Of a DNA stretch of 64,000 bases, positions 31,697 through 31,900 are shown piece by piece. The notes beneath the pieces are model-generated. The model worked only from the letters and a program-made list of their open reading frames with translations. It did not search any database and was not told where the DNA came from. Source of the stretch: an uncultured Acidobacteriota bacterium (lineage in GTDB: Bacteria; Acidobacteriota; Thermoanaerobaculia; Multivoradales; UBA5704); contig CAWHUF010000005.1 in assembly GCA_963832495.1 (NCBI GenBank), positions 1,813,766 through 1,877,765 on the forward strand. The letters run 5' to 3'. Position numbers and translations under genes: made by a program. Position 1 is the first letter of the stretch. Every line of letters begins with the position of its first letter.

Positions 31697-31900
31697 CCGC
31701 CCTGAAAGAGTGAAATTTGAATAGCCTGGCGCTTCAGCGCCAGGAACGGTGCCCACCCCCACCCATTGTCCGCCCTGAATGGACGGAACCCAACGCTGGC
31801 CGAAAGGCACCGCCCTTTCAGGGCGGGAAAATGGGGTGGGGCGGCCTCAGTCCTGACGTTGAAACGCCAGGCTATTCCAATTTCGGCCCTTTCAGGGCGG
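31697..31900. repeat. ~200-bp nested perfect-dyad element (MITE-like / long structured hairpin)
   Basis: Outer arms 31697-31731 (CCGCCCTGAAAGAGTGAAATTTGAATAGCCTGGCG) and 31865-31900 (reverse complement CCGCCCTGAAAGGGCCGAAATTGGAATAGCCTGGCG). Inner arms CGCCCTGAA at 31771-31779 and TTCAGGGCG at 31818-31826 share the same centre (~31799). There are also matching CCCACCCCCACCC / GGGGTGGGGCGG blocks and a local hairpin CCTGGCGC-ttca-GCGCCAGG (31725-31744). Confidence 0.6.

What the first reader, a model, noticed from the sequence alone, without database searches (positions are those of the whole stretch)
31697..31900. ~200-bp nested perfect-dyad element (MITE-like or long structured RNA)
Two about 35-bp arms (31697-31731 and 31865-31900; about 85% complementary) enclose an inner complementary pair (CGCCCTGAA at 31771-31779 and TTCAGGGCG at 31818-31826), centred exactly at about 31799. 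Further paired blocks are CCCACCCCCACCC / GGGGTGGGGCGG. The motif CCGCCCTGAAAG appears four times (two direct, two inverted). The whole segment can fold into one long imperfect hairpin. No ORF explains it. It lies between a ParD-like mini-ORF and a small secreted-protein gene.
Basis: seen in the sequence. Interest (0 to 1): 0.6.

Follow-up and report, generated by a model that had tools for sequence, protein, structure and literature searches.

The report
Decayed palindromic repeat built from Acido-Lenti-1 hairpins
The ~205-bp hairpin is real, but it is one worn copy of a short palindromic repeat scattered through Acidobacteriota genomes, whose two arms are the catalogued but function-unknown "Acido-Lenti-1" hairpin motif, so it is a modest finding rather than a unique regulatory RNA.

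Summary
Window 31694-31903 is a near-perfect dyad centred at about 31799. As RNA it folds at -136 kcal/mol on the + strand and -155 on the - strand (z -12.9 and -15.6).

It is not unique. One motif scan of JGI metagenomes hit the 120-locus limit, and 32 of those loci hold full-length 190-215-nt homologues (nhmmer E down to 1e-26). Several contigs carry two or more copies. The window holds a third module at 56466-56517.

Each arm has three small local hairpins. The outer two (SL2, a linker, SL1) are the Rfam motif Acido-Lenti-1 (RF01687), whose function is unknown. Relatives score 38-47 bits against a threshold of 37. The window arms score 29.6 and 26.3, so they are decayed.

Covariation supports the local hairpins, not the long hairpin. 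Non-Watson-Crick pairs are rare and show no G-U excess, which suggests a DNA-level palindrome. Copies sit just past gene 3' ends, often between convergent genes. I saw no target-site duplications and no parent insertion sequence.

My best reading is a REP/REPIN (BIME)-like non-autonomous repeat. Its mobilising enzyme is inferred, not shown. The window copy sits where a relative carries a ParE toxin gene, among pseudogenes. Interest is moderate (0.38).

The parts
31694..31903 (.). The whole palindromic doublet: two outward-facing arms around an asymmetric centre. Family-level homology covers about 31697-31900.
   Evidence: nhmmer finds full-length homologues in 32 metagenome loci.
31695..31746 (-). 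Left arm module. In the Acido-Lenti-1 orientation it reads on the - strand as SL2, linker, SL1.
   Evidence: Rfam RF01687 scores 29.6 bits, E 8.5e-5, at 31713-31744 (-), below the gathering score of 37. The custom model R1 scores 63.8 bits, but this sequence was in its training set.
31697..31712 (+). Left SL1, degenerate: CCGCCCTGAAAGAGTG. The family consensus is CGCCCTGAAAGGGCG, so the 3' half is mutated.
   Evidence: Infernal drops this hairpin
31713..31724 (+). Left linker AAATTTGAATAG. It ends in an ATAG tag directly 5' of SL2.
31725..31744 (+). Left SL2: CCTGGCGCT TC AGCGCCAGG, a perfect local hairpin.
   Evidence: (repeat I7)
31745..31769 (+). Left spacer. It contains CCCACCCCCACCC at 31752-31764.
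31770..31786 (+). Left SL3: CCGCCCTGAATGGACGG. The family consensus is CCGCCCTGAAGGGGCGG, so this copy is partly mutated.
31787..31809 (+). Asymmetric centre AACCCAACGCTGGCCGAAAGGCA. It is shared, in longer form, with the closest subfamily (L149, L046, L100, L109, L124, L097) and gives the doublet a polarity.
31810..31826 (+). Right SL3: CCGCCCT TTC AGGGCGG, a perfect local hairpin.
31827..31851 (+). Right spacer. It contains GGGGTGGGGCGG at 31833-31844.
31850..31902 (+). Right arm module in the Acido-Lenti-1 orientation. SL2 is 31852-31871 (CCTGACGTTGAAACGCCAGG, with one A-C mismatch). The linker CTATTCCAATTT is 31872-31883. SL1 is 31884-31900 (CGGCCCTTTCAGGGCGG).
   Evidence: Rfam RF01687 scores 26.3 bits, E 6.8e-4. 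R1 scores 59.7 bits, training member. Weak terminator-like call at 31886-31898.
31534..31695 (+). Flanking 53-aa ORF. It is an N-terminally diverged remnant of a 62-aa antitoxin-like family (86% identity to P0122). Its stop codon overlaps the first bases of the palindrome. Its ParE toxin partner is missing.
31930..32354 (-). Flanking pseudogene for a secreted protein. It has a frameshift and an internal deletion of about 115 aa relative to P0209 and P0210. Its stop lies 26 nt from the palindrome.
56466..56517 (-). A third, single module of the same family in the window: GGTCCCgctaGGGACC, linker, GTAG, CCAGGGATTTCAATCCCTGG. It starts 30 nt after the stop of ORF 56002-56436 and was not in the model's training set.
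   Evidence: R1 scores 29 bits, E 3.5e-7. Sequence.

Best explanation
The element is one decayed copy of a dispersed, non-coding palindromic DNA repeat family of Acidobacteriota.

A copy is an outward-facing inverted doublet of about 190-215 nt. Each arm carries three small GC-rich local hairpins. From the outside in these are SL1, an (A/G)TAG-tagged linker, SL2, a spacer of about 25 nt, and SL3. The two arms flank a short asymmetric centre. The outer two hairpins plus linker are the Rfam motif Acido-Lenti-1 (RF01687).

The conserved functional unit is the local hairpin module. It probably acts in DNA, either single-stranded or as a cruciform. The long hairpin is a by-product of placing two modules in inverted orientation.

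By architecture, copy distribution and lack of target duplications it works like REP / REPIN (BIME) elements. These are non-autonomous units copied in trans by a hairpin-recognising HUH tyrosine (Y1) transposase of the RAYT/TIRYT type. They accumulate just downstream of genes, where they are tolerated and can incidentally stabilise or end transcripts.

In this window the copy fills the gap between two convergent decaying genes, at the place where a relative carries a ParE toxin gene.

Shown: family membership, architecture, multi-copy dispersal, conservation of the local hairpins, position at gene 3' ends, and decay of this copy. Inferred: the mobilising enzyme and any effect on transcripts.
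For: Dispersed family:
- The scan GAATAGCCTGNNNNTTCANNNNCAGG hit the 120-locus limit in JGI metagenomes, with many +/- pairs 120-150 nt apart.
- nhmmer with the window element finds 32 full-length homologues, best E 1.1e-26.
- A covariance-model search of 45 GC-rich loci finds 92 modules. By my reading of the table, about 34 doublets are all arranged (-) left and (+) right. There are two doublets on each of L101 and L116, and at least 4 modules on each of L039 and L054.
- The window holds a third module.
- An acidobacterial MAG carries a single module 13 nt after a stop codon (L027).

Identity of the arms:
- Rfam RF01687 scores 38-47 bits in relatives.
- It scores 29.6 and 26.3 bits in the window.

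Local hairpins are what is conserved:
- In 66 arms, 92% of cells pair, 10 of 14 pairs show double changes, and 0 of 500 shuffles reach the observed score.
- In 40 half-elements, 97% of cells pair across three helices, including SL3 (GC 28 / AU 12 at its closing pair).
- Local pairing is 189 of 192 against cross-arm 167 of 192.
- Spacer identity within a copy is 0.46 against 0.40 between copies.

DNA-like signature: of 760 SL2 pairs, 749 are Watson-Crick, 3 are G-U and 5 are A-C.

Context: copies are intergenic, mostly 5-70 nt from gene ends. 11 lie between convergent genes, 8 between co-directional genes and 2 between divergent genes.

REP link:
- Some doublets are capped by canonical GTAG-tagged REPs, GTAG-GGGCGGCC-ctgtgt-GGCCGCCC.
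- SL2 is preceded by ATAG, or by GTAG in the third window module.
- Di Nocera et al. 2013 (PMC3733652) describe REP head-head dimers with structured spacers. They also describe an Acidobacteria-specific clade of RAYT-like transposases whose flanking repeats form a family in Koribacter versatilis.

No target duplication.

Local history:
- Relative L004 lacks window ~30626-32415.
- L008 has antitoxin plus ParE (PF05016, E 3.9e-15) at this spot.
Against: - No Y1/RAYT gene was seen in the window or in about 1 Mb of fetched loci. The test was weak, because the query was an E. coli YafM sequence recalled from memory.
- No recurrent neighbouring protein family was found in the GC-rich loci.
- The copy number in the source genome could not be measured. 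That genome is absent from genome contigs, and both gene look-ups tried failed.
- I found no precise filled-versus-empty site pair, so mobility is inferred from dispersal only.
- The GAATAG tag was fixed by my search pattern, so its invariance in my set is partly an ascertainment effect. Rfam seed sequences show CUA or CUG after SL2.
- Classical REPs have one hairpin per unit. These arms have three.
- Rfam and Weinberg et al. 2010 classify the motif as a likely RNA. The covariation seen here is compatible with that.
Confidence: 0.6

Rival explanations
1. It is a functional structured RNA. Either the 46-nt Acido-Lenti-1 modules are small RNA or cis-acting RNA elements as Rfam files them, or the ~200-nt hairpin is a double-stranded RNA substrate at the 3' ends of the convergent transcripts (protection from exonucleases, RNase III processing, or U-tract-independent termination).
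For: - Rfam RF01687 is typed 'Gene; sRNA', and Weinberg et al. 2010 rated it a probable RNA.
- The local hairpins covary strongly.
- Copies sit 5-70 nt after stop codons.
- The - strand folds about 19 kcal/mol better than the + strand, with 8 G-U pairs against 4.
- There is a weak terminator-like site at 31886-31898.
Against: - Among SL2 pairs there is no G-U excess over A-C (3 against 5 of 760). The pairing is almost purely Watson-Crick and symmetric between strands.
- The motif is multi-copy and appears in either inverted arrangement in different lineages.
- It forms arrays in Lentisphaera (seed coordinates).
- The long hairpin itself is not conserved.
- No promoter-like site was found, and terminator-like sites occur at chance level.
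- The window copy has broken hairpins.
Confidence: 0.2
2. It is a classical MITE: a deletion derivative of a DDE-transposase insertion sequence, moved by cut-and-paste through its terminal inverted repeats and making target-site duplications.
For: - It has terminal inverted repeats, small size, no ORF and dispersed copies.
- An IS630-family element is present in the same window.
Against: - No direct repeats flank the copies. The flanks are unrelated or merely extend the palindrome by 0-6 nt.
- The IS630 ends (CTAGTGTAGTGCGTCCCA) are unrelated to the arms. That IS is inserted into a module rather than bounded by one.
- No transposase family recurs next to copies.
- Single modules and opposite-orientation doublets exist.
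- The arms are self-palindromic hairpins, unlike typical IS inverted repeats.
Confidence: 0.08
3. It is a one-off local palindrome, for example a replication fold-back product, that serves at most as an oversized bidirectional terminator between two convergent genes.
For: - It is the only doublet in the 64-kb window.
- It lies between convergent 3' ends.
- It is absent from the closest relatives' loci.
Against: - Full-length homologues with the same modular order occur in dozens of unrelated contigs.
- The arms match a curated Rfam family.
- There is no similarity to the neighbouring or replaced genes.
Confidence: 0.02

Closest known systems
Acido-Lenti-1 RNA motif (Rfam RF01687; Weinberg et al. 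2010, PMC2864571)
   Same: Each arm has the motif's layout: an 8-9-bp hairpin with a 4-nt loop, CUA, a linker of about 12 nt, then a 5-6-bp hairpin. Family relatives pass the gathering score (38-47 bits). The phylum matches (Acidobacteria). The motif is multi-copy in the seed genomes.
   Different: The window arms are below threshold (29.6 and 26.3 bits). Here the motif is only the outer part of a larger unit: a third hairpin SL3, an asymmetric centre, and a fixed outward-facing inverted pairing. The paper's text does not describe this arrangement. It says only that the motif occurs in two phyla and sometimes near group II introns. The pairing statistics here point to DNA rather than RNA.
REP / REPIN / BIME elements mobilised by RAYT (Y1 HUH) transposases (Bertels & Rainey 2011, PMC3116915; Di Nocera et al. 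2013, PMC3733652)
   Same: - Small GC-rich palindromes with an xTAG tag next to the stem.
- They occur as single units or inverted dimers 20-100 bp apart with structured spacers.
- The dimers can fold separately or as one long hairpin.
- They are extragenic, at gene 3' ends.
- They make no target duplications.
- They form mosaics with other palindromic units.
- Some copies here are physically capped by canonical GTAG REPs.
   Different: There are three different hairpins per arm rather than one. The tag lies between two hairpins. No RAYT/TIRYT gene was found linked to them here. The within-genome copy number is not established.
Long-hairpin MITEs such as Neisseria Correia elements and enterobacterial ERIC/IRU
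   Same: They are 100-200-bp imperfect palindromes, dispersed, intergenic, co-transcribed with neighbours, and able to form long RNA hairpins (from established knowledge).
   Different: Those elements have defined terminal repeats with target duplications (TA for Correia) and a conserved long-range stem. Here no target duplication is seen, and only the local hairpins are conserved.
Intrinsic (bidirectional) terminators
   Same: GC-rich hairpins placed between convergent genes.
   Different: This element is about ten times longer. It has no consistent U-tract. It is a repeated family with conserved linker sequence.

Membership tests
Acido-Lenti-1 RNA (RF01687) | Covariance-model score at or above Rfam's gathering score of 37 bits | tested here: not met
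   Window arms score 29.6 bits (31713-31744 -) and 26.3 bits (31852-31899 +), with E 8.5e-5 and 6.8e-4 in a 601-nt search. There was no hit at gathering threshold anywhere in the window. Arms of homologous doublets in other loci score 38.4-47.3 bits. The window copy is therefore a degraded relative of true members.
Acido-Lenti-1 RNA (RF01687) | Two hairpins (8-9 bp and 5-6 bp) joined by a conserved linker starting CUA, supported by covariation | tested here: met
   In the family alignment A2, SL2 is 98.5% paired and SL1 84%, and 10 of 14 pairs show double changes. In the window, left SL2 is perfect, right SL2 has one A-C mismatch, right SL1 is intact with one extra G, and left SL1 is broken.
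REPIN / REP dimer (BIME-like) | [quoted passage not shown] | tested here: met
   About 34 doublets share one fixed relative orientation in 45 loci.
REPIN / REP dimer (BIME-like) | Many dispersed extragenic copies within one genome | tested here: inconclusive
   There are three modules in this 64-kb window. There are 2-6 modules on single contigs L039, L054, L101 and L116. Dozens of contigs of one sample (Ga0272440) carry the module, often at contig ends. The source genome is not in the searchable collections, so its total count is unknown. None were found in about 65 kb of close relatives' loci.
REPIN / REP dimer (BIME-like) | Conserved GTAG-type tetranucleotide adjacent to the hairpin | tested here: inconclusive
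   ATAG precedes SL2 in both window arms, and GTAG precedes it in the third module. GAATAG was fixed by my scan pattern, however. Rfam seeds show CUA or CUG after the stem.
REPIN / REP dimer (BIME-like) | A cognate single-copy RAYT (Y1 HUH) transposase gene, typically flanked by the repeat | not testable with these tools
   No hit in ORFs of the window plus 157 loci, using a recalled E. coli YafM query (a weak test). Whole genomes could not be fetched. The literature reports an Acidobacteria-specific RAYT-like clade (PMC3733652).
MITE (DDE-transposase derived) | Target-site duplication flanking the terminal inverted repeats | tested here: not met
   Flanks of 31 doublets show no direct repeats. 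The window flanks are GGACT and TTATC.
MITE (DDE-transposase derived) | A parent IS with the same terminal inverted repeats | tested here: not met
   The only IS in the window (IS630 family, 56519-57681) has unrelated ends. No transposase recurs beside copies. Only the sequence in hand was searched.
Integron attC site | R''/R' core sites (RYYYAAC ... GTTRRRY) at the ends of an imperfect 57-141-bp palindrome next to a cassette ORF | tested here: not met
   Read directly from the sequence. The ends are GAACCGCC...GGCGGTTC followed by TTATC, so there is no GTTRRRY. The length is 210 bp. I did not search for an integrase.
Intrinsic terminator | Short GC-rich hairpin followed by a U-tract | tested here: inconclusive
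   One weak site on the + strand (31886-31898, tail GGTTCTTATC). The region has 2 sites against 1.2 expected from shuffles.

The most novel reading that the evidence does not exclude
Acido-Lenti-1 may not be a small-RNA gene at all. It may be the hairpin recognition module of a widespread class of DNA-level palindromic repeats found across phyla: outward doublets in Acidobacteriota, inward doublets and mosaics in an AT-rich lineage, and tandem arrays in Lentisphaera. The acidobacterial ~200-nt form would then be a new three-hairpin-per-arm, heterodimeric REPIN class, copied by the Acidobacteria-specific RAYT-like (TIRYT) transposases. It would also serve as a preferred landing pad for other mobile elements, such as the IS630 insertion seen here and the group II introns reported nearby in Lentisphaerae.
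Probability: 0.4. Interest if true: 0.5.

Novelty: new variant of a known kind. Interest (0 to 1): 0.38.

Why it matters
The Acido-Lenti-1 motif has sat in Rfam since 2010 as an orphan RNA with no function.

The evidence here shows that in Acidobacteriota it is the arm of a fixed-geometry, multi-copy palindromic doublet. Its pairing is Watson-Crick only, it sits at gene 3' ends, and it is sometimes capped by GTAG REPs. That evidence suggests a REP/REPIN-like DNA repeat instead of an RNA gene.

This gives a concrete and testable hypothesis: a cognate Y1 transposase that binds and cleaves single-stranded hairpin DNA. It would extend the REPIN-RAYT idea to a poorly studied soil phylum. It also explains assembly breaks and mis-called ORFs, such as the 160-aa CDS that overlaps this copy.

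For this particular locus the consequence is small. It is a worn copy in a stretch of decaying genes.

Tried and rejected
- **Rfam at gathering threshold on the whole window:** nothing. The link only appeared after relatives were found.
- **First pattern scans with the outer arm** (GAACCGCCCTGAAAGNGNNNAANTTG): 0 hits in viral and metagenome contigs.
- **Relaxed pattern in genome contigs:** 26 single hits. All looked like chance except L027. The source genome is not in that collection.
- **Exact-protein look-ups of the source contig** (ACAD, P0121): both failed.
- **Synteny through ACAD homologues:** the locus upstream of ACAD is a breakpoint, and no relative carries the element.
- **Derivation of the hairpin from the lost ParE gene or other local sequence:** no similarity.
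- **Pfam, NCBIfam and PADLOC on the small flanking ORFs:** only a non-significant RelB/ParD C-terminal match.
- **Search for a linked transposase:** the only recurrent neighbour family was histidine kinases and response regulators in the AT-rich sample. A recalled RAYT query found nothing.
- **Repeat unit in the AT-rich sample:** it is under 400 nt, so it is not an IS.
- **GTAG-REP enrichment in the window:** none.
- **Strand asymmetry of wobble pairs:** none.
- **attC and IS630-end explanations:** rejected on sequence.
- **Viral contigs:** only 2 matches. One (L157) scores 33 bits with R1. I did not pursue it.

Full report
**1. The observation**

Window 31694-31903 is a 210-bp imperfect dyad (GAACCGCC...GGCGGTTC) centred at about 31798.5.

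- The repeat finder reports arms 31694-31719 / 31878-31903 (81% complementary) and 31712-31786 / 31810-31884 (75 nt, 76%).
- blastn reports 53 nt at 86.8% between the outer arms.
- CCGCCCTGAAAG occurs three times exactly and once with one mismatch, against 0.7 expected.
- As a single strand the region folds into one long hairpin: -136.2 kcal/mol on the + strand (z -12.9) and -155.4 on the - strand (z -15.6). None of 200 shuffles does as well.

**2. Local context**

The window is GC-rich (66%). Named NCBI homologues of its acyl-CoA dehydrogenase gene (ACAD, 32601-34532) are 87-92% identical and come from Thermoanaerobaculia (Acidobacteriota) MAGs. The best hits overall, at 93-94%, are unnamed.

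About 190 nt upstream of ACAD are conserved in all relatives. Everything further upstream differs between them.

- The closest relative, L004, has 113 bp in place of window ~30626-32415.
- Relative L008 carries, upstream of the ACAD leader, a 121-aa gene, a 62-aa antitoxin-like gene (P0122) and an uncalled ParE toxin (PF05016, E 3.9e-15).
- Relative L009 carries a secreted-protein gene there instead.

The window has pieces of both arrangements, and all of them are damaged.

- The 121-aa homologue is interrupted by an in-frame TGA at 31309-31311. I read this from the ORF list.
- The antitoxin homologue is reduced to 53 aa with a diverged N-terminus.
- The secreted-protein gene has a frameshift and an internal deletion of about 115 aa. 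Its real stop is at 31930-31932.
- The neighbouring giant repeat-protein gene is split over four frame segments relative to the intact L004 orthologue.

The palindrome fills almost the whole gap between the antitoxin remnant's stop (31693-31695) and the pseudogene's stop. That is where L008 has ParE. It shows no similarity to the ParE gene.

**3. It is a member of a dispersed family**

Scans with the outermost arm sequence found nothing in viral or metagenome contigs. In representative genomes they found only chance-level single hits, with one exception.

The exception is L027, an uncultured Acidobacteriota MAG. There a 52-nt stretch 13 nt after a stop codon reproduces one arm, with a compensatory change in the second hairpin.

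A pattern built on that hairpin, with its four variable stem pairs left free (GAATAGCCTGNNNNTTCANNNNCAGG), reached the 120-locus limit in JGI metagenomes. Many matches were +/- pairs 120-150 nt apart.

- nhmmer with the window element then found 32 full-length homologues of 190-215 nt, with best E 1.1e-26.
- A covariance model of the arm (R1) found 92 modules in 45 GC-rich loci.
- By my reading of that table, these include about 34 doublets, all with the same relative orientation.
- Several contigs carry two doublets or 4-6 modules.
- R1 also found a third module in the window at 56466-56517 (29 bits, E 3.5e-7). This one was not in the training set.
- No module was found in about 65 kb of the closest relatives' loci.

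**4. Architecture**

Read from the outside in, each arm consists of:

- SL1 (CGCCCTGAAAGGGCG);
- a linker (AATTTGAATAG);
- SL2 (CCTGGGGTTTCAACCCCAGG, or the CCTGGCGC...GCGCCAGG variant);
- a variable spacer of about 25 nt;
- SL3 (CCGCCCTGAAGGGGCGG, or variants starting GCCCC or ACCCC).

The two arms flank a short centre. In the window's subfamily that centre is asymmetric (..GGAACCCAACG...GCTGAAAGGCACC..). The doublet is therefore a heterodimer with a polarity.

Some copies add an outer unit that is a canonical GTAG-tagged REP: GTAG-GGGCGGCC-ctgtgt-GGCCGCCC, or GTAG-GGGAGGGG-cttgt-CCCCTCCC. The window has no excess of that REP.

**5. Match to a known family**

SL2, the linker and SL1, read outward, are the Rfam family Acido-Lenti-1 (RF01687). 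Arms of relatives score 38.4-47.3 bits against a gathering score of 37. The window arms score 29.6 and 26.3 bits (E 8.5e-5 and 6.8e-4 in a local search), and the model drops the left SL1 entirely.

Weinberg et al. 2010 describe the motif only as occurring in Acidobacteria and Lentisphaerae, sometimes near group II introns in Lentisphaerae. They rate it a probable non-cis-regulatory RNA.

Their seed coordinates show many copies per genome. They include tandem runs with 69-200-nt periods in Lentisphaera and one inverted pair in a whale-fall metagenome. Only five papers in the library mention the motif, and the four listed give no sign of dealing with doublets or a function.

**6. What is conserved**

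- In 66 distinct arms, 92% of cells pair. Ten of 14 pairs show double changes, and no shuffle reaches the observed covariation. Registers slid by 1-3 columns fall to 26-56% paired.
- In 40 half-elements the three helices are 94.5%, 99.4% and 95.8% paired. SL3's closing pair is GC in 28 and AU in 12, with none unpaired.
- In the 12 doublets whose two SL2 copies differ, each copy keeps its own pairing (189 of 192). Arm-to-arm pairing drops to 167 of 192.
- Spacers of the two arms of one copy are barely more alike than arms of different copies (0.46 against 0.40).

The long hairpin is therefore a geometric consequence of two inverted modules. It is not the selected structure. The window copy happens to have fairly complementary spacers (0.56).

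Of 760 SL2 pairs, 749 are Watson-Crick, 3 are G-U and 5 are A-C. A structure selected in RNA usually tolerates G-U on one strand. Symmetric, Watson-Crick-only pairing suggests a DNA-level palindrome, or very young copies.

**7. Where copies sit and how they might move**

A rough ORF analysis puts copies in intergenic DNA, mostly 5-70 nt from gene ends. Eleven lie between convergent genes, 8 between co-directional genes and 2 between divergent genes.

The flanks show no direct repeats. In about a third of copies the palindrome simply runs on for 2-6 more bases.

No protein family recurs beside the GC-rich copies. A recalled RAYT query found no Y1 transposase in the sequence at hand (a weak test).

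In one AT-rich sample (Ga0272440) the same module sits in a different short mosaic repeat of under 400 nt. There are dozens of copies, often at contig ends, and the doublets have the opposite (inward) orientation.

This matches the published picture of REP elements (Di Nocera et al. 2013):

- single units;
- head-head or tail-tail dimers 20-100 bp apart, with structured spacers;
- dimers able to fold separately or as one large stem-loop;
- a mostly extragenic location.

That paper also defines an Acidobacteria-specific clade of RAYT-like 'TIRYT' transposases. One of them, in Koribacter versatilis, is flanked by members of a repeat family. I could not test whether that repeat family is Acido-Lenti-1.

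**8. Verdict**

The finding is real and far beyond chance. It is neither a unique regulatory hairpin nor a classical MITE. It is a decayed copy of a REP/REPIN (BIME)-like palindromic repeat whose arms are the Acido-Lenti-1 motif. In this copy the left SL1 is broken, the left SL3 is mutated and the right SL2 has a mismatch. It lies between two convergent pseudogenes in a degenerating accessory stretch.

Family membership and architecture are shown. Mobilisation by a Y1 HUH transposase and any effect on transcript ends are inferred.

The composite doublet, and the evidence that the motif behaves as a DNA repeat, appear to be undescribed in the literature I could search. I rate it a new variant of a known kind, of moderate interest.

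Noticed in passing
window 56519-57681 (flanking TA at 56517-56518 and 57682-57683): An IS630-family insertion sequence. It has 18-bp inverted ends, CTAGTGTAGTGCGTCCCA, and a DDE_3 / helix-turn-helix transposase at 56586-57671. It is inserted in the CTAG directly after SL2 of the third Acido-Lenti-1-like module, so the module served as a landing site.
   Followed up: yes
window 30680-31020: A lower-GC (~56%) non-coding stretch packed with TTTACAC / GTGTAAA-type motifs in both orientations, for example 30785-30816 and 30886-30897 / 30973-30984. 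It looks like clustered protein-binding sites. One GTGTAGAAC copy also sits in the 26-nt spacer of relative L009.
   Followed up: partly
L001 5500-5680: At the equivalent position upstream of ACAD, a relative carries a different tandem set of CTGTAATGTnGCTGTAATGTGACATGTGATA repeats. This locus seems to collect repeat cassettes.
   Followed up: no
window 32386-32600: About 190-215 nt upstream of the ACAD start are conserved at 74-82% identity in all relatives, while everything further upstream is unrelated. This could be a conserved leader or operator.
   Followed up: no
window 26454-30483 (- strand): The giant RTX-like repeat-protein gene is broken into four frame segments (three frameshifts) relative to the intact 1345-aa orthologue in L004. 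Together with the TGA-interrupted ORF 31063-31485 and the secreted-protein pseudogene, this makes 26.4-32.4 kb a run of decaying genes. Other long ORFs in the window are intact by a crude ORF scan, so general assembly error seems unlikely, though it is not excluded.
   Followed up: partly
window 30655-30693: A 38-nt remnant of the 3' end of a glyoxalase/VOC-family gene that is intact at this locus in L008 and L009.
   Followed up: partly
L008 4174-4488: An uncalled ParE toxin gene (PF05016, E 3.9e-15) overlaps the end of the 62-aa gene P0122. This indicates that this unannotated 62-aa family ('predicted transcriptional regulator' in JGI) is a ParE-partner antitoxin.
   Followed up: yes
loci from sample Ga0272440 (e.g. 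L041, L049, L059, L060, L072): An AT-rich organism carries dozens of copies of the module (GTCCCtaaaGGGAC, linker, CCTGGAGTTTCAACTCCAGG) inside several short mosaic repeats. One type ends in ..CGCTTACTTA. Many copies lie at contig ends, and the doublets have the opposite orientation to the acidobacterial ones. I did not determine its taxon.
   Followed up: partly
L157 458-496 (IMG/VR contig IMGVR_UViG_3300033073_001448): A module-like match (R1 33 bits, E 1.7e-8) on a 92-kb predicted viral contig.
   Followed up: no
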